From the NCBI GenBank assembly GCA_963707875.1, contig CAVPRU010000001.1, positions 145,591 through 209,590 of the forward strand: a stretch of 64,000 nucleotides of DNA, written 5' to 3'. How positions within the stretch are numbered: position 1 is the stretch's first letter; every line of letters starts with the position of its first letter. The notes under the pieces are model-generated. The model was not told the origin of the DNA. It worked only from the letters and a program-made list of their open reading frames with translations, and searched no databases. Shown piece by piece: positions 5,652 to 62,612 of the stretch. This DNA is from an uncultured Gemmatimonadales bacterium (GTDB taxonomy: Bacteria; Gemmatimonadota; Gemmatimonadetes; Gemmatimonadales; GWC2-71-9). The position numbers were made by a program, and so were the translations under genes.

Positions 5652-6953
5652 CTACGGATAGAGGCGGTGGATCTGTCGGGGGAAGGCGATGGCTTCGCGG
5701 ATGTGGGGAATGCCGCAGATCCACGCCACGGTGCGCTCCACCCCGAGGCCGAAGCCGGAGTGCACGAAGGTGCCATACCGCCGCAGGTCGAGGTACCACC
5801 GGTAGGCCTCGGGGTCGAGCCCCTGCCCCACGATCCGCGCCAGCAGCCGATCGTAGTCATCCTCCCGCTGGCTCCCCCCGATGATCTCCCCGTAGCCTTC
5901 CGGGGCGAGGCAGTCGTTGGAGAGCACCGTCCGGGGGTCGGCGGGGTTCTCCTTCATGTAGAACGCCTTGATCTCCTGCGGGTAGTTGTAGACCAGGACC
6001 GGCCGATCGTAACGCGACGCCAGCAGGGTCTCCTCGTCTCCGCCGATGTCGGCCCCCCACTCGATCGGATGCCCTTCGGACTGGAGCCAGGCCACCGCAT
6101 CGGTGTAGGACAGCCGAGGGAATGGGGGCACCACCGACTCGAGTCGTGCCGTATCCCGCTCGAGCTCCTTGAGCTCTTCCTTCCGGCGGTCGAGTGCCCG
6201 GCCGACGATGTAGCTCACGAATTCTTCCTGCAACGCCATGTTGGCGTTCGAGTCGTTCCACGCCACCTCGGGTTCCACCATCCAGAACTCGGTGAGGTGT
6301 CGTCGGGTCTTGGATTTCTCCGCCCGGAAGGTCGGGCCGAAGCAGTAGATCTTGCCCAGGGCGGCCGCGGCCGCCTCGCCGTAGAGCTGGCCGGTCTGCG
6401 CCAGGTAGGCACTCCCTAGGTCGAAATAGTCGGTGGCAAACAAGTTCCCCGCTTCCTCGCCGATCGAGCCGGTCAGGATCGGGGTATCGACCAGCACGAA
6501 ATCGCGTTCGTAGTAGAAGTCCCGGATGGCCTGTACCACTTCGTGCCGGACCCGGGCGATCGCGGTCTGCCGCCGGCTCCGGAGCCAGAGATGTCGGTGC
6601 TCGAACAGAAACGCGGTGCCGTGCTCCTTGGGAGTGATCGGGAACTCGTGGCTCGGGCCGAGGACCTGAAGCTCGGTGAGTCCCATCTCGAACCCGCCGG
6701 GCGCCCGCGGCTCAGCCCGCACTTCGCCGGTCACGGCCACCGAGGTCTCCTGGGTCAGGGACTGGAAAAGCGACCAGGTGGCCTCGGGAACCTGGGTCTT
6801 GACCAGGACACACTGGAGGAGGCCGGTGCCGTCCCGGATCACCGCGAAGGCCACCTTGCCCGAGGAGCGGGTGGTGGAGACCCACCCGCGGATGGTGACA
6901 GACTGCCCGGTGGATTCGCCAGAGGCCAGATCATGGATTCTGAGAACGGTCAT
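5652..6953 (-). CDS. asnS: Asparagine--tRNA ligase
   Basis: The track ORF 5652..7184 is over-extended. Conserved AsnS sequence starts at [26 protein letters not shown] (ATG 6953). Class II motifs are present: [21 protein letters not shown] and [19 protein letters not shown] 17 codons upstream is an alternative start. Confidence 0.9.
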
Positions 6954-48239: not shown

Positions 48240-48497
48240 CTATTGGGAAAGCCGTTTGGGCTCGCCGCTGCTGCTGGTGCCGCTGCTGTTCTGGTCGGGA
48301 CTGTCAATTCGGCGAGCGGCCGGACCATCGTCCGGAGGCAGATTGCTGACCGAATTATTGACCTCCGAGAGGCTCCGCTTGAACTCGCGAATTCCCTTGC
48401 CCATCGAAGCCCCGATCTCCGGCAGCCGCTTGGCGCCGAACAGCAGGAGGACCACGGCCAGGATGGCCAGGATTTCGCCGAAACCGAGATTGGGCAT
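48240..48497 (-). CDS. tatA: Twin-arginine translocase subunit TatA/E
   Basis: MPNLGFGEILAILAVVLLLFGAKRLPEIGASMGKGIREFK (canonical TatA N-terminus). Confidence 0.9.
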   Translation of the reverse strand: MPNLGFGEILAILAVVLLLFGAKRLPEIGASMGKGIREFKRSLSEVNNSVSNLPPDDGPAARRIDSPDQNSSGTSSSGEPKRLSQ

Positions 48498-53344: not shown

Positions 53345-56056
53345 CTAGGGGGCGGTGGTTCGCTGACTGTAGTCTACCTTGAGGTCCGGAAGGTCGACCA
53401 GGTGGACCGAAACGTAGAAGGCGAAGTTCCCGTTGGGGTTCCGCACGAAGTTGAACCCGGCTCGCCAGTCGTGCAGGTCCCGGGTCAGGTTGAGAGTGTT
53501 CGACTCGAACTTGCCGGTGGTGACATTGTATTGGGTGATCCAGTTGATCCCCCAGTACCGGGTCGGGGAGAACTGGGTCACCAGATTCAGGCTGCTGCTG
53601 CTGACGACCGGGAGCGTGTCCACCACCGGTCGGGTGCGGTTCAGGGTGTAGTTGATCCTCATGGTGAACGCCCGGCGGGCGCCGCTCAACTGGTTGGACA
53701 TCGCCAGGGTCCGCTGCTGCATCAGCTGCCGGGGGTCGGTCAGGGGTCCGGATGGGAGCGGCTGACCGGGCACCGGCCCGGTCGATGGATCGGCCGGCCG
53801 GTCGCCCAGCCCGAGCAGAGCCCCGATGCCCCTGATCGTGCTGCCGTCGATCATGAAGCCGGCGTTGACGGACTGGAGGAAGAGGTCGAACTTGGTCCCC
53901 TGGACCCCGACCGGCCCATTCCAGAGCCCGTGACTCATGGAGAAGTCGAACCCCGGCAGCAGGTCGCTGGCCAGGGTGTTCGAGATCGAGGCGTCCATCC
54001 AGCCAGTCAGACTGTCCTTCTTGGCCCGCACGAAGTCATAGCCGATCCCGCTGGTGTTGAGGCTCAGCAGCCGGATTTTCTGCTGCTGGGTGTTCCCCAG
54101 GGTGTCGCCCGGAGCCGGCTTCTTCTTGGCCTCGAAGTTCTGCGACAGGGAAATCCTGAGCACGTTGGTGGCCGGGCTCGCCACCTTCCCGGTCCCGGTG
54201 GTCCGGAAGGCATTGGCGTACTCCTCGGGGACTTCCGTCTCGGGAGACCAGTCCCAGGTAATCAGCGGCGCGATGGTGTGACGGATCCGTTCGAACCCCC
54301 CGAAGCCGGGCCAGAATCCGAAGAAGGTCGGGGAGGCACCGAGTCCGCCGGAGATCCGCTTCCCCTGGGTCACCCACTGGCCATTGGTCTGTTCGTTCCG
54401 GATGGCGAGCGGTCCGGAGGTGCGATTGGCCGCACTTACCCTCGGACCCAGCTTCCAGGTGCGCGGGAAGAGGATCGGCAAGTTGAAACTGAAGTTCCAA
54501 TCCAGTTCCGTGGAGTAGCGCCCCGCCACGTCGCGGGTTACCGAAATCGAATCGGTCGGGTCCGGGGTCTCAGGATTGGGGATCCGGATCACCACGGTGC
54601 TCGGATCATTGGCCTGGCGGTCATTGACGATCAGACTCTGCTGCAGGTTGAACGTCCCGATCCGCAGCGGAGTCTGCATGGTGAACGCGGTCACCCGGTT
54701 GGTCGGCGTCTGTTCGGCCGAGTCGACCGTCCCCCCGGGCCGCGGAAAGACGAGGAAACGGCGGGCCGAGGTGCTCCGGTCGTTCCGGAAGGTCAGGGTC
54801 GGCGACCAGGTCCCCCACGAACCGACATCGATCGGCTTGGGCGAAATGGTCAGTGAGGGGAGCGTTTGGGACACCTGGTCGTCTCCCAGCGTCTGCATCC
54901 GGGTTCCGCCCAGGGTGGCGCTCCCCCAGCGGAACCGTTTGGTCAGATTGAGACTGCTCGAGAGCTGGCGGGTGTTGAGAAAGGGATCCAGGGCGTTGTT
55001 GGCGACAACCCGGGTATTGGAATTCAGGTTGACGTTGGCGGACAGCGTGGTGGTCAGCCCGAACAACTGGTTGTGGCGCCATCGGAGGCCGGTGGCCGTC
55101 TCACCCCCTGATTGGAGTTGTCGGCTGTACTCCAGGCCCCCGTCGACGAAGCGATCGAGCAGTTTGTACTGGGTGGTCGCCTGCCACTCGAAGTAGTTCC
55201 CGGCGTACCAGTTGAAGCGGATTTGGGCGTCCAGATAGTCGTTGATCGCCCAGTAGTACCCGAAGTCGGTCACCTGGCGCCGGTACCCGGTACTGTTCCG
55301 GACGATGTCGTTGAACCCGAACTGCGGCACCAGGATCCCCGATTTGCGTCCCGGCTTGGTCTCCTGGAAGATGAACGGGAGCCACGCGATCGGGACATCG
55401 CGGATATAGAGCACCGCGGGGCGGCCGACCATCAGCGAGGAGGACATCCACTTCACTTCCTTGGCCTGGAAATGATAGTGGGCCACCGGCAGGTCACAGC
55501 TGGTGATTTCGCCACTCGCGCCAAAGATCCGATTGCCGGTGGAATCCACCGCCAGATCTCCCCGCAGCACCCAGTCACCACCCAACTGCTGGACCGTGGT
55601 CAGGGCATCGGTGATGACCCCACGCTCCACACAGGTGTCGTACTTGATGGTTCCGCCAACCACGACCGATCCCTGGTCGAACAGTCTCGGGTCGCCCTCG
55701 GCCCTCAGCACGCATTCGGACTCCACATAGGAGATGGCTCCGGCCTCCATGATGGTGCCCTGCCGGTCGGTCATCGCGTTGCCCGACAGCCGCAGTCGCC
55801 GATCGATCCCGGTGATGGTGGCCGTGTCCGCCAGATACCGAGTGGCCATGAAGCCCTCCAGGTCCAGCAGCGCCGCCACGACCGAGTCGGGTGGCGGGAA
55901 GGACTTGCTGGGCCCGGAGGGAATCCCCATCCGGCGGGCACTGGCCGAATCGAGCTTCTTGACCGGGCGAAGGGTGTCGGCCAGTTGAGGTGGCTGGAAG
56001 GGCTGCTGGGCGTCGGATCGGGCCGAAGCGCCGGCGAGCACGGCCAGGAGGATCAT
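53345..56056 (-). CDS. lptD: LptD/OstA-like outer-membrane LPS-assembly protein (LptD_2-type), in frame with and not separated by a stop from tatC
   Basis: Internal ATG 56056 opens MILLAVLAGASA-RSDAQQ (signal-peptide-like, AxA site). Then an OstA-like N-domain (LRLSGNAMTDRQGTIMEAGAISY..LRAEGDPRLF) and SGILVPQFGFN..DFGYYWAINDYLDAQIRFNWY, characteristic of Bacteroidota-type LptD. Confidence 0.7.
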   Translation of the reverse strand: MILLAVLAGASARSDAQQPFQPPQLADTLRPVKKLDSASARRMGIPSGPSKSFPPPDSVVAALLDLEGFMATRYLADTATITGIDRRLRLSGNAMTDRQGTIMEAGAISYVESECVLRAEGDPRLFDQGSVVVGGTIKYDTCVERGVITDALTTVQQLGGDWVLRGDLAVDSTGNRIFGASGEITSCDLPVAHYHFQAKEVKWMSSSLMVGRPAVLYIRDVPIAWLPFIFQETKPGRKSGILVPQFGFNDIVRNSTGYRRQVTDFGYYWAINDYLDAQIRFNWYAGNYFEWQATTQYKLLDRFVDGGLEYSRQLQSGGETATGLRWRHNQLFGLTTTLSANVNLNSNTRVVANNALDPFLNTRQLSSSLNLTKRFRWGSATLGGTRMQTLGDDQVSQTLPSLTISPKPIDVGSWGTWSPTLTFRNDRSTSARRFLVFPRPGGTVDSAEQTPTNRVTAFTMQTPLRIGTFNLQQSLIVNDRQANDPSTVVIRIPNPETPDPTDSISVTRDVAGRYSTELDWNFSFNLPILFPRTWKLGPRVSAANRTSGPLAIRNEQTNGQWVTQGKRISGGLGASPTFFGFWPGFGGFERIRHTIAPLITWDWSPETEVPEEYANAFRTTGTGKVASPATNVLRISLSQNFEAKKKPAPGDTLGNTQQQKIRLLSLNTSGIGYDFVRAKKDSLTGWMDASISNTLASDLLPGFDFSMSHGLWNGPVGVQGTKFDLFLQSVNAGFMIDGSTIRGIGALLGLGDRPADPSTGPVPGQPLPSGPLTDPRQLMQQRTLAMSNQLSGARRAFTMRINYTLNRTRPVVDTLPVVSSSSLNLVTQFSPTRYWGINWITQYNVTTGKFESNTLNLTRDLHDWRAGFNFVRNPNGNFAFYVSVHLVDLPDLKVDYSQRTTAP

Positions 56057-56809
56057 CCCGGCCCTGGCGGCTTGCCGGGTACGACGTCGGTGGATCAGCA
56101 GCGACCCCGCCAGGCCCACCTCATAGAGCAGGACCAGCGGCACCGTCATCATCATCATCGAGATGAGGTCGGCGCCCGGCGAGAGCAGCGCACCGGCCAC
56201 GCACGACAGCACGATCGCCACTCGGCGGAACTTCCCGAGCGCGGCCGGAGTCACCAGCCCCAGGGAGGTGAGGATCAGAATCAGCAGCGGCAGTTCGGCC
56301 GAAATCCCCATCGCAAGCACGATCTGCAGCACGAAACTGAAATACTTGTCGTAGGTGATCACCAGTTCCAGGGCTTCGACCTGGAAGCTCAGCATCACCG
56401 CCAGCGCCTTGGGCACCACGAAGACCCAGGCCCCGGCCGCGCCGGCCAGAAAGAGCACCAGTCCGACAAACAGCGCCGGCAGCAGGGTCCGCTTTTCCTT
56501 CTGGTAGAGGGCCGGGGAGAGGAAACACCAGAGCTGCCAGATCACCACCGGCGAGGCCAGCACCAGTCCGACCACGAAGGCCAGCTTGAAGACGATCATC
56601 ACCGGATCGGTGGGGCTGAGCACCGCGAGCTTGCCAGTGGGGAGGTAGGGCTCGATCGGGATCTTGAGCAGGGCGACCAGCTGGAACCGCTGCACCAGCC
56701 AGAAGCCGATCCCGAACCCGACGATCAGGGCGCCGAGGGCCTTGAGAATCCGATGCCGAAGCTCCTCGAGGTGATCGAGGAATGGCATTTCACCGGTTGG
56801 GGTCCGCAT
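56057..56809 (-). CDS. tatC: Twin-arginine translocase subunit TatC (no stop codon; reading frame continues into the lptD-like gene)
   Basis: MPFLDHLEELRHRILKAL.. followed by six predicted TM helices, with a basic tail HRRRTRQAARAG. The track shows one 1154-aa ORF, 53345..56809. Confidence 0.8.
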
Positions 56810-56827: not shown

Positions 56828-57615
56828 TCAGGGCTGCAGCGTGGCCAGCCGCTGGCGGGCGAGATCCGCTTCTTCGGTGCGGGGGTACCGATCAATCACC
56901 CGCTGGTAGGCCGCCCGGGCTGCTGCCCGGTCGCCACTCTGCTCGCTTAGCAGACCGATCTTGTAGAGCGAGGTCGGCGCACGGGGGGAACTGGCGAACC
57001 GGGCCACCACCTGCTCGTAGTAGGCCCGGGCCGAATCGGGGTTCTCCCGTCCGAAGCTCTCGCCCACCCAGTACAGGCCGGCCGCGACCTGGGAATCGGT
57101 CGGATAGGTCCGGAGGTACTCCTGGAACCCGGCCCGGGCGGTGGTCCGGCTACCCCGGTTCAACTCGCGGAGGGAGGCCTGGAAGAGCTGATCGGGGGTG
57201 GGCGTCTGGGGCACCACTGCCCCGGTATCCGGCAGCAGCAGCGGGGTCGGGCCGCTGTCGACCGCCGTAAACTGCTCGGTCCGGTCGTCCAGCTGACGGC
57301 GCAGCTCGTTCAACCGCCGCTGGCTCTGACCGGTGAGCTCCTGGATCTGGACCAGCGACTGCTGAACCGCCACCAGTTCCCCCCCAGGTCACTCCGCATC
57401 TGCCGGATGGCGTCCCGGGTCGATGACAGCGAGTCCAGGGTGCGCTGCTGGAGGGCGATGACCCGGCCCAACTCAGCGGCCCGGGCGGAGTCCTGCCGGA
57501 CCAGGACGGTCCGGACGACCAGCAGTTCCGTCTCCACCCGGCGGACGGCCCCCTTGGTGGCACACCCGGCCACCAGTATGAGCAGGAGGCCGGTCGCGGT
57601 GGTGCGAGCGATCAC
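56828..57615 (-). CDS. cpoB: Tol-Pal system protein CpoB/YbgF, interrupted by a frameshift at a C7 (mRNA G7) tract
   Basis: N-terminal part (GTG 57615): lipobox LLILVAG-C plus a coiled coil ending ..IRQMRSDLGG. C-terminal part (frame of ORF 56828..57373): ELVAVQQSLVQIQELTGQ.. plus the TPR domain YWVGESF..ARAYYEQVV..SLYKIGLL..AAYQRVIDRYP. The two frames meet at 57378-57384. Confidence 0.75.
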
Positions 57616-61463: not shown

Positions 61464-62612
61464 CTAGCGATCGGAGCCGTTCGGGAGCCGGGCCACATGC
61501 CGGACCGGCGTTCCCGGGGCAATGTCCGGCGAGACGACGGTCAGGAGAAGGACCGTCGCGCTCCGCTCCCCCACCCGCACAACCTGCCCAGTCGCCATCA
61601 GCTCGTCGACCAGATCGGCTGACCGGGTTCGGGCCTGGGGCCGGCGCCGGACTTCCATCACGTCCCCCGCCCGGAGCCCATCGTTCCGGCCAAGGTTGAT
61701 GAAGATCACATTCTGCGGGTGCTTGAGTTCCTTGAGGTCTCGACCGCCGATGACCTCTCCTACCACCCCGTTTTCCAAGGCAACCGCCCGCTGATCAGGC
61801 CCCTTGCTGAACCGCTCGGCGGGGAGCACGAATTGACCATTGCGCATCGGGCCGAACACGGACACAACTCGGGCCAGGTACTGCTCCTGACTCATCCCGG
61901 TAACGACAACCAGCCCGGTCGGGACCACCGCCACGCCGTAGCCGACGTACTCCGGCCCTCGGATCCCGACCAGGAGACTGTCCCCGACCGCATAGCTGCC
62001 ATCGGCTGGCGGCCGGACCCCTACCACGGTGTTGAGAGTGACCGAGGCGCGCTCGCTGAGGTTCCGGATCTGCTGGGGGGTGACCGCCCCGACCAGCTGG
62101 CCGAACGGCAGCGTGGCGCCCTCAGTCAGGAAACCGGACGAGTAGAATTCGCCGGGCCGGAGCGACCGGTAGGACATATCCACATAGCTGGTGAGCGCCT
62201 CGGACGCCTGCAGCGCCCGCCGCTGGGCGAACTCGGGCATCGGATATTCGGCATTCGGCGCCTGGCGCTCCTGGGGCTGAGCGACCGGTGCCTGAGCGGG
62301 CTCAGCGGCTGGAGCCGGCGTTTCCTCGGTCGGCACCGCGCTGACTCCCTCGGTGGCGACCAGCCGGAGCACTTCCCCGGGGTAGATCCAGTGCGGATCC
62401 TCCACTACGGAGGTGTTCAGCCGGAAGATCTGAGGCCAGAGGAAGGCATCGCCGAGGTACTGGCGCGCCAGGGCCCACAGGGTGTCGCCGCTCCGCACCG
62501 TATGGGTCTCGGTGCGGGTGGTCTGCTGGGCCTGAGCCGGCGCGACCGCGAAGGCCAGGCTCAGCAGACCAAGCAGCGAAAGTCTAGAACGGAAGGTCGT
62601 CGTCCTCGCCAT
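61464..62612 (-). CDS. Secreted LysM-domain peptidoglycan-binding protein
   Basis: Signal peptide [28 protein letters not shown] (ATG 62612, overlapping the ssb 3' end by 29 nt). LysM motif [39 protein letters not shown]. Confidence 0.8.

What the first reader, a model, noticed from the sequence alone, without database searches (positions are those of the whole stretch)
53345..56809. TatC and an LptD-like outer-membrane protein are encoded as one uninterrupted 1154-codon ORF
What the sequence shows:
- Residues 1-~240 are a complete TatC (MPFLDHLEELRHRI.., six hydrophobic helices).
- The frame then continues, with no stop, through a basic tail (HRRRTRQAARAG).
- Next comes a signal-peptide-like segment (M-ILLAVLAGASA|RSDAQQ, an AxA site).
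- After that is a ~900-aa LptD/OstA-type protein (GILVPQFGFN..GYYWAINDYLD).

Established knowledge: TatC ends in the cytoplasm, so a following hydrophobic segment would insert in-to-out and place the LptD moiety in the periplasm. Signal peptidase could then cleave it off. A covalent TatC-LptD precursor is therefore topologically feasible, and as far as I know it has not been described.

Three explanations are open:
1. A real fusion or precursor.
2. Independent internal initiation at ATG 56056.
3. An assembly indel.

The junction reads GGG-ATG-ATC, so a TGA sits in the +1 frame directly on the ATG (ATGA). That is the same stop/start overlap used by neighbouring genes. A single-nucleotide error between about 56060 and 56095 would convert the locus into two ordinary coupled genes. 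Three other genes in this window do need 1-nt frame corrections, so option 3 has to be excluded first.
Basis: partly seen in the sequence, partly recalled or inferred. Interest (0 to 1): 0.7.

Follow-up and report, generated by a model that had tools for sequence, protein, structure and literature searches.

The report
Conserved TatC–LptD fusion gene in Gemmatimonadales
An inner-membrane protein-export subunit (TatC) and the outer-membrane lipopolysaccharide inserter (LptD) are encoded as one gene here and in at least 66 related uncultured species, and the retained signal peptide at the joint most likely lets signal peptidase cut the product into the two usual proteins.

Summary
Window 53345..56809 (-) is one 1154-codon ORF carrying a complete TatC (aa 1-240) and an LptD-type protein (aa 268-1154).

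It is not an assembly indel:
- At least 120 protein clusters (51-94% identical, 1150-1180 aa) from independent JGI, ENA, NCBI and Logan assemblies have the same two-domain ORF.
- 66 of 74 informative Gemmatimonadota species genomes have it too.
- A 92.7%-identical contig has the same 3465 nt, no indels, and 69% of its substitutions at third codon positions.

All 8 unfused relatives have tatC directly upstream of lptD with overlapping stop and start codons (ATGA, GTGA). That is the likely ancestral state. Fusion arose more than once.

The junction is an intact Sec signal peptide. It has TatC's post-TM6 RRR cluster, an uncharged run of 13-21 residues and an A-x-A|Q site (-1 Ala in 115/121, +1 Gln in 121/121). 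Stand-alone homologues carry the same features at their N-terminus.

The Met at 56056 is not conserved, and no conserved internal start with a Shine-Dalgarno motif exists.

The most likely product is a polyprotein cut by signal peptidase I at A267|Q268. Cleavage is inferred, not shown. I found no published description.

The parts
53345..56809 (-). Single ORF of 1154 codons plus stop, encoding the TatC-LptD fusion
   Evidence: Full-length homologues with both Pfam domains appear.
56090..56809 (-). TatC core (aa 1-240, six transmembrane helices)
   Evidence: PF00902 E 1e-56; TIGR00945 190 bits against cut-off 132.7. Profile against PDB TatC chains gives E 3e-64. The AF2 model matches Aquifex TatC 4b4a with TM-score 0.75 normalised to the target.
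56063..56089 (-). Basic cluster RRRTRQAAR (aa 241-249). It is both TatC's cytoplasmic post-TM6 tail and the n-region of the internal signal peptide.
   Evidence: R241-R243 are nearly invariant. The same HRRR follows TM6 in unfused TatC of relatives.
56021..56062 (-). h-region AGMILLAVLAGASA (aa 250-263). It contains the non-conserved Met252 (ATG 56054..56056).
   Evidence: Uncharged run in fused proteins has median 18 residues (13-21), against 17 (12-23) in the N-terminal signal peptides of stand-alone homologues. Mean hydropathy is the same, 1.98 against 2.01. Met is not conserved.
56006..56020 (-). c-region RSDA (aa 264-267) plus Q268, the first residue of mature LptD. Predicted signal peptidase I site is A267|Q268.
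   Evidence: Across 121 fused proteins: -3 is Ala in 98, -1 is Ala in 115 (Gly 5, Ser 1), +1 is Gln in 121, +3 is Pro in 94. Stand-alone homologues end their signal peptides with the same AxA|Q.
55850..56005 (-). Pro/Arg/Gln-rich variable linker and the conserved motif LDSASARRMGIPSGPSKSFPPPDSV at the start of mature LptD (aa 269-320)
   Evidence: Length is variable among homologues. Invariant residues are D287, A291, G295, P297, P300 and D308. AF2 pLDDT is below 50 for aa 245-308.
55430..55849 (-). Beta-rich N-terminal periplasmic domain of the LptD part (aa 321-460), probably a beta-jellyroll
   Evidence: Beta strands in the AF2 model, with low to moderate confidence. Foldseek alignments to full-length LptD span about 890-970 columns. 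The profile matches LptD 8h1r residues 158-331 at E 4.5e-4. PF03968 LptD_N is hit in the distant fused homologue P0194.
53390..55429 (-). Large outer-membrane beta-barrel of the LptD part (aa 461-1140)
   Evidence: PF19838 LptD_2. AF2 pLDDT is mostly 80-94. The top 15 PDB fold matches are all LptD (E 1e-16 to 6e-13). The next barrel class, TonB-dependent transporters, appears at about 1e-5.
56828..57615 (-). Upstream gene cpoB/ybgF (TPR protein), the last gene of the tolQRAB-pal-cpoB cluster. It ends 18 nt before the tatC start. In this window it is split by a 1-nt homopolymer frameshift.
   Evidence: The same gene order is seen in L001 and L082.
48243..48491 (-). tatA, the Tat partner gene, about 5 kb downstream and not adjacent to tatC
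   Evidence: tblastn with the TatA of L001 gives 58% identity. The same arrangement is seen in L001.

Best explanation
This is a real, evolutionarily maintained gene fusion. It most likely arose when the overlapping stop and start codons between adjacent tatC and lptD genes were lost.

A ribosome starting at the tatC ATG has no stop codon until the end of lptD, so one 1154-aa chain is made.

Inferred mechanism:
1. TatC's six helices insert into the inner membrane, with the C-terminus in the cytoplasm. This topology is established for TatC.
2. The next segment is an intact Sec-type signal peptide: the RRR cluster, about 14-18 uncharged residues, then A-x-A. It inserts N-in/C-out.
3. The roughly 890-aa LptD moiety is threaded into the periplasm.
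4. Signal peptidase I cuts at A267|Q268.

The products would be an ordinary mature LptD starting with Gln, which goes on to the outer membrane, and a TatC that keeps the signal peptide as a short seventh C-terminal membrane segment.

The two proteins are thus made in a fixed 1:1 ratio. LptD export is tied to co-translational insertion of TatC.
For: Shown:
- One ORF with a complete TatC and an LptD-fold protein.
- The same fused ORF occurs in at least 120 independent 90%-identity clusters and in 66 of 74 informative species genomes.
- A 92.7%-identical contig has identical length, and 174 of its 253 substitutions are at third codon positions.
- All 8 unfused relatives have tatC immediately upstream of lptD, with overlaps such as ATGA, GTGA, TAGTG, TGATG, or 8-11 nt.
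- Independent fused lineages P0194, P0200 and P0343 have the same junction anatomy.
- The junction matches the N-terminal signal peptides of stand-alone homologues in length, hydropathy and the A-x-A|Q site, with +1 Gln in 121/121.
- Other exported proteins in the window also end their signal peptides in AxA|Q, for example TolB (ARA|Q).

Inferred: insertion topology, cleavage, and the fate of the two products.
Against: - No experimental or proteomic evidence for cleavage was available.
- The AF2 model gives no confident structure for aa 245-308.
- I could not test whether genomes with the fusion carry a second tatC or lptD. I held only +/-4-10 kb of the related loci, and the window has one copy of each.
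- The -3 position is Leu in 12 of 121 fused proteins, which is less favourable for signal peptidase I.
- Some internal initiation at GTG/TTG codons in individual species cannot be excluded from sequence alone.
Confidence: 0.7

Rival explanations
1. Assembly or sequencing indel: tatC and lptD are really two coupled genes (ATGA overlap), and a 1-nt error in this window fused them.
For: The window does carry a homopolymer frameshift in neighbouring cpoB. A TGA lies in the +1 frame on ATG 56056. Unfused relatives use exactly such overlaps.
Against: The fused frame occurs in at least 120 independent clusters down to 51% identity and in 66 of 74 species genomes, from megahit, SPAdes and long-read assemblies. 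An independent 92.7%-identical contig has the same length with no indel. The junction contains no long homopolymer.
Confidence: 0.01
2. Internal translation initiation. LptD is mainly made separately from a start codon inside the ORF (ATG 56056 here), and the in-frame continuity with tatC is incidental.
For: ATG 56056 exists and is followed by a hydrophobic segment. GTG and TTG codons are common in the junction of homologues.
Against: - A Met in the junction is present in only 23 of 121 homologues, at scattered positions.
- Only 9 of 34 fused loci have any in-frame start with a Shine-Dalgarno-like core. These are at no conserved position, and several are by-products of the YEV codons.
- Starting at Met252 would give a signal peptide with no basic n-region, whereas most stand-alone homologues have one.
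- Ribosomes coming from the tatC start would still read through and make the fusion.
Confidence: 0.1
3. Uncleaved bifunctional protein. The hydrophobic segment serves as a permanent seventh helix, and the LptD moiety stays tethered to TatC. This would physically link the Tat translocon to the outer-membrane LPS inserter across the periplasm.
For: The fusion is stable over long evolutionary time, and tatC-lptD adjacency is conserved even where the genes are unfused. A flexible Pro-rich linker of about 40-60 residues follows the hydrophobic segment.
Against: - The A-x-A|Q site is as strictly kept as in stand-alone precursors.
- The hydrophobic run has not lengthened towards a typical membrane anchor: 18 against 17 residues.
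- By a rough, noisy regex measure the linker is not longer than in stand-alone homologues (p = 0.16).
- The linker is also present in stand-alone proteins.
Confidence: 0.12
4. Decaying or non-functional locus (pseudogene fusion).
For: None beyond the unusual architecture.
Against: Both domains score well above family cut-offs. Hundreds of invariant residues span both halves. Substitutions are biased to the third codon position.
Confidence: 0.01

Closest known systems
Adjacent, translationally overlapping tatC and lptD genes of other Gemmatimonadota (e.g. loci L079, L074, L080 labelled Gemmatimonadaceae; also L051, L059)
   Same: The same two proteins in the same order, in the same tol-pal neighbourhood. 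LptD starts with a signal peptide ending in AxA|Q.
   Different: There tatC ends with a stop that overlaps the lptD start (ATGA, GTGA, TAGTG, TGATG). TatC keeps an acidic C-terminal tail, and LptD has its own Met/Val start and n-region. Here the stop, most of the tail and the start codon are gone.
FbcH of Bradyrhizobium japonicum: a cytochrome b-c1 precursor made as one polypeptide and split at an internal signal peptide (recalled from my own knowledge: Thony-Meyer et al., 1989-1991; not retrievable in the paper library)
   Same: A polytopic inner-membrane protein is followed in the same ORF by an exported protein. An internal signal-peptide-like segment lies at the joint, and cleavage yields two separate functional proteins.
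   Different: The FbcH products are subunits of one complex, and its processing was shown experimentally. Here the two parts belong to different machines (Tat export and LPS insertion), the second product must reach the outer membrane, and cleavage is only inferred.
Viral membrane polyproteins processed by host signal peptidase (e.g. the HCV core-E1 junction, PMC5402940)
   Same: An internal signal sequence after a preceding protein directs translocation of the next one. It is cut on the lumenal or periplasmic side and stays attached to the upstream product.
   Different: Those are eukaryotic ER systems and viral genomes. This is a cellular bacterial gene.
LptD of Proteobacteria (LptDE structures 4q35, 4rhb, 5iv9, 8h1r)
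   Same: Best fold match for aa ~320-1140: an N-terminal beta domain plus a very large beta-barrel. There is weak profile similarity.
   Different: Only 10-14% identical. It falls in Pfam LptD_2 (PF19838), not the classical LptD models. The conserved cysteines differ. No LptE partner was identified here, and the function is untested.

Membership tests
TatC (PF00902 / TIGR00945) | Sequence match above the curated cut-off over the full domain | tested here: met
   PF00902 scores 192 bits against 25.1. TIGR00945 scores 190 bits against 132.7, covering aa 11-229 of a 215-position model.
TatC (PF00902 / TIGR00945) | Six-helix TatC fold | tested here: met
   The AF2 model matches 4b4a and 4hts with TM-score 0.75 normalised to the target, rmsd about 4 A, 37% identity.
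TatC (PF00902 / TIGR00945) | Works with TatA/B in twin-arginine export | not testable with these tools
   tatA is present at 48243..48491. Activity was not tested.
LptD_2 (Pfam PF19838) | Sequence match above the gathering score | tested here: met
   138 bits against 22.5. All listed homologues carry the domain.
Classical LptD (NCBIfam equivalogs NF002997 / NF003358) | Score above the equivalog cut-off | tested here: not met
   17.6 and 19.4 bits against cut-offs of 683 and 944. It should be filed as LptD-like (LptD_2), not as the proteobacterial equivalog.
LptD (structural class) | N-terminal periplasmic beta-jellyroll plus a very large C-terminal beta-barrel | tested here: met
   The top 15 PDB fold hits are all LptD, at E 1e-16 to 6e-13. 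The longest alignments span 860-1020 columns, and full-length LptD chains are among them. The barrel is modelled at high pLDDT and the jellyroll part at low pLDDT. The strand count was not verified.
LptD (function) | Inserts LPS into the outer leaflet together with LptE | not testable with these tools
   No LptE was identified and no functional data exist.
Sec / signal peptidase I substrate (internal signal peptide) | n-h-c organisation: basic n-region, uncharged h-region of about 10-20 residues, small residues at -3 and -1 | tested here: met
   RRR cluster; uncharged run with median 18 residues; -3 is Ala in 98/121; -1 is Ala/Gly/Ser in 121/121. Stand-alone homologues' signal peptides are close in length and hydropathy and share the A-x-A|Q site.
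Sec / signal peptidase I substrate (internal signal peptide) | Actual cleavage by signal peptidase I | not testable with these tools
   Needs proteomics or expression experiments.
FbcH-type bacterial membrane polyprotein | One ORF encoding a polytopic membrane protein followed by an exported protein, with an internal signal sequence | tested here: met
FbcH-type bacterial membrane polyprotein | Post-translational splitting into two stable proteins | not testable with these tools
   Inferred only.

The most novel reading that the evidence does not exclude
The fusion may be more than a silent merger. It would force an outer-membrane beta-barrel protein to be targeted co-translationally through TatC's first helices, and made in strict 1:1 ratio and at the same membrane site as TatC. 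Alternatively, it could stay partly uncleaved as a trans-envelope tether. Either would reveal a functional link between the Tat translocon and LPS insertion. The link is hinted at by tatC-lptD adjacency with overlapping codons in every unfused relative examined and by at least three independent fusions.
Probability: 0.15. Interest if true: 0.8.

Novelty: new variant of a known kind. Interest (0 to 1): 0.5.

Why it matters
- It would be a natural bacterial case in which an outer-membrane beta-barrel protein is synthesised as the tail of a polytopic inner-membrane protein. OMPs are normally exported post-translationally. Here export must follow co-translational insertion of TatC, which gives a natural test of how flexible OMP targeting is.
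- It would leave TatC with a seventh, signal-peptide-derived helix next to TM5/TM6. This is the region where, from my own knowledge of Tat structures, TatA and TatB bind.
- It has a practical consequence for annotation. Public annotation names these proteins only 'TatC', so LptD will be scored as missing in many Gemmatimonadales genomes in surveys of outer-membrane and LPS machinery.
- It shows how overlapping stop and start codons plus a downstream signal peptide make gene fusion nearly cost-free and recurrent.

Tried and rejected
- A 9-sequence alignment was too divergent for the search for related loci. A 5-sequence alignment worked.
- One Pfam call exceeded the residue limit and was repeated with fewer proteins.
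- Literature searches for TatC+LptD+fusion, Gemmatimonad+LptD and TatC+Gemmatimonad found no description of the fusion. The 2013 TatC survey lists one tatC and one tatA for Gemmatimonadetes and does not mention a fusion.
- Searches for the fbcH precedent found nothing citable in the library, so that comparison rests on my own knowledge.
- The idea that the RRR cluster makes the junction a Tat signal was rejected. The same RRR follows TM6 in unfused TatC, and stand-alone LptD signal peptides have no consistent twin-arginine motif.
- The idea that the ATGA at 56056 is a relic of the ancestral overlap was rejected. The 81%-identical homologue and most others lack the Met.
- Cluster look-up gave no organism names for the distant fused lineages.
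- A second homologue search, using an unfused LptD, found no cultured species among the top 120 clusters.
- The linker-length comparison used a loose regex and is only indicative.
- Whether fused genomes carry extra tatC or lptD copies could not be tested.
Full report
**Observation.** The window contains one ORF on the minus strand, 53345..56809, of 1154 codons.
- Pfam places TatC (PF00902, E 1e-56) at aa 12-224 and LptD_2 (PF19838, E 5e-40) from aa 461.
- NCBIfam TIGR00945 (tatC equivalog) scores 190 bits against a cut-off of 132.7.
- Between the two domains the frame runs without a stop through H240-RRRTRQAAR-AG-M252-ILLAVLAGASARSDA-Q268-Q.

**Is it an assembly artefact? No.**
- A search of about 5.8 billion proteins returned at least 120 clusters of 1150-1180 aa. 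They are 51-94% identical over 99-100% of the query, and all carry both Pfam domains. They come from JGI, ENA, NCBI and Logan assemblies, and where named are Gemmatimonadales.
- A scan of one genome per GTDB species with the LptD part returned 80 loci, all Gemmatimonadota.
- Re-analysing these loci together with L001 (81 in all), 66 have TatC and LptD in one open frame. Eight have them in different frames. Seven are cut by a contig end.
- The fused loci include megahit, SPAdes and long-read assemblies with contigs of up to 3.5 Mb.
- The closest relative with DNA (L082, Logan) is 92.7% identical over the gene. It has exactly 3465 nt and no indel, and 174 of its 253 substitutions are at third codon positions.
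- The window does have a real frame problem 570 nt upstream, a G7 run against G8 in cpoB.

**Origin.**
- All eight unfused loci have tatC immediately upstream of lptD, with the stop overlapping the start. The overlaps are ATGA (L079), GTGA (L074, L080), TAGTG (L051), TGATG (L059) and 8-11-nt overlaps (L046, L061). L072 has a 3-nt gap.
- In a neighbour-joining tree of the LptD parts, the unfused Gemmatimonadaceae-labelled lineages are basal. A large clade is fused, with a few unfused members nested inside it.
- Distant homologues P0194 and P0200 (33-36% identical) are also TatC+LptD_2 fusions and branch outside that clade, among stand-alone proteins.
- Within the otherwise unfused Gemmatimonadaceae group, 1 of 120 clusters (P0343) is fused. 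It still carries the whole acidic TatC tail and the LptD n-region.
- Fusion has therefore happened at least three times.
- Among the top 150 representatives at 50% clustering, 12 carry TatC (7 of them full length) and 74 full-length proteins are stand-alone.

**Anatomy of the junction.**
- In 121 fused proteins the residue before the invariant Gln (Q268 here) is Ala in 115, Gly in 5 and Ser in 1.
- Position -3 is Ala in 98. Position +1 is Gln in 121 of 121. Position +3 is Pro in 94.
- Stand-alone homologues have ordinary N-terminal signal peptides that end in the same AxA|Q.
- The uncharged run is 13-21 residues (median 18) in fused proteins and 12-23 (median 17) in stand-alone signal peptides. 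Mean hydropathy is equal, 1.98 against 2.01.
- The distance from the first Arg of the basic cluster to the -1 Ala is 24-32 residues (median 27). Stand-alone signal peptides have a median length of 26.
- The basic cluster is TatC's own post-TM6 HRRR, which is also present in unfused TatC.
- The junction is therefore an intact Sec-type signal peptide whose n-region is supplied by TatC's tail.
- Other exported proteins in the window also end their signal peptides in AxA|Q, for example TolB.

**Internal initiation.**
- Met252 is shared only with the closest relatives. A Met occurs anywhere in the junction in 23 of 121 proteins, at scattered positions.
- In 34 fused loci examined at DNA level, only 9 have an in-frame ATG/GTG/TTG with a Shine-Dalgarno-like core. 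None is at a conserved position, and several are by-products of the Tyr-Glu-Val codons.
- In contrast, GAGG or GGAG lies 8-9 nt before the start in L079, L074 and L080.
- Initiation at Met252 would give a signal peptide without a basic n-region.
- Whatever happens internally, ribosomes that start at tatC have no stop before the end of lptD.

**What the C-terminal part is.**
- An AlphaFold2 model built on 66 sequences has mean pLDDT 69.5. The barrel is mostly 80-94, and aa 245-308 are below 50.
- Foldseek against the PDB gives LptD as the top 15 hits (E 1e-16 to 6e-13, with alignments of up to about 1000 columns). TatC follows (4b4a, TM-score 0.75 normalised to the target).
- The next barrel class, TonB-dependent transporters, appears only at about 1e-5.
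- The sequence profile matches LptD 8h1r at E 4.5e-4.
- It fails the proteobacterial LptD equivalog cut-offs. I therefore file it as LptD-like (the LptD_2 family), with function untested.

**Context.** The gene order is tolQ-tolR-tolA-tolB-pal-cpoB-tatC::lptD-hutH-TPR-polyprenyl synthase-DUF4321-tatA, with surA on the opposite strand. The same order is seen in L001 (a 740-kb contig) and L082. The window has one tatC and one lptD.

**Mechanism (inferred).**
1. TatC's six helices insert with the C-terminus in the cytoplasm. This topology is established for TatC.
2. The following signal peptide inserts N-in/C-out.
3. The LptD moiety is translocated.
4. Signal peptidase I cuts at A267|Q268.
5. This releases a normal mature LptD and leaves the signal peptide attached to TatC as a seventh short membrane segment.

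The closest precedent I know is the FbcH cytochrome b-c1 polyprotein of Bradyrhizobium (from my own knowledge; not retrievable in the library). Viral polyproteins cut by host signal peptidase are a further analogue (PMC5402940, listed).

The alternative that the protein stays uncleaved as a trans-envelope tether is not excluded. It is disfavoured because the cleavage motif is strictly kept and the hydrophobic segment has not lengthened. A rough linker-length comparison also showed no significant difference.

**Novelty.**
- Full-text searches found no description of a TatC-LptD fusion.
- Public annotation calls the fused proteins only 'twin-arginine translocase subunit TatC', while stand-alone homologues are called 'putative LPS assembly protein LptD'.
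- I rate it a new variant of a known kind: a signal-peptidase-processed membrane polyprotein arising from overlapping genes.
- It is real and widespread in an uncultured clade, but probably yields the two usual proteins.

Noticed in passing
window 57373-57390 (-), G-run at about 57378-57384; cpoB ORFs 57310..57615 and 56828..57373: cpoB/ybgF is split into two overlapping ORFs by a 1-nt difference in a G homopolymer. The window has G7, while the 91%-identical relative L082 has G8 and an intact 262-aa gene. This is probably a homopolymer sequencing error, or else a real pseudogene.
   Followed up: partly
window 59487 (-) TolB start; 62612 (-) ORF start; Q268 of the fusion (56006..56008): Signal peptides in this organism end in AxA|Q: TolB has ARA|QD and the ORF at 62612 has AQA|QQ. 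The +1 Gln is invariant in 121/121 fused LptD proteins and present in most stand-alone homologues. This resembles the 'Q-rule' (N-terminal pyroglutamate) described for Bacteroidetes (PMC5837995), whose abstract says it does not hold for the whole FCB group. It may be worth testing in Gemmatimonadota.
   Followed up: partly
window about 55886-55960 (-), aa 284-308 of the fusion: A strongly conserved motif LD(S/T)A(S/T)ARR(L/M)G(L/I)P(S/T)xP(S/T)(R/K)xFxxPDSV sits at the start of mature LptD, before the beta domain. Invariant residues are D287, A291, G295, P297, P300 and D308. The 'RRLGLP' half is missing in the Gemmatimonadaceae-type homologues. Its function is unknown; it could be a docking motif.
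   Followed up: no
window 48243..48491 (-): tatA lies about 5 kb downstream of tatC::lptD, next to a DUF4321 gene and opposite surA. It is not beside tatC. The same arrangement occurs in L001.
   Followed up: partly
P0343 (1248 aa, ENA); P0194 and P0200: These are independent TatC-LptD fusions outside the main fused clade. P0343 keeps the complete acidic TatC tail and the LptD n-region (…ARATPVAPAIRRLFGILLALIAVTGTAAA|QLP), which looks like a recent loss of the stop codon.
   Followed up: partly
L008 (5223-5949) and L013 (5135-5853): In two long-read MAG loci the tatC part is itself broken by a frameshift in mid-gene, while the TatC-LptD junction stays in frame. These are probably long-read indel errors.
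   Followed up: no
L061 (about 5900-6100), L046, L072: Unfused tatC/lptD pairs are nested within the otherwise fused clade. In L061 the lptD ATG lies 11 nt inside the tatC end. These are either secondary fissions or single-MAG errors, and this was not resolved.
   Followed up: no
Public annotations of homologues: Fused proteins are named only 'twin-arginine translocase subunit TatC' by NCBI and JGI pipelines. LptD would therefore appear absent from these genomes in gene-presence surveys.
   Followed up: no
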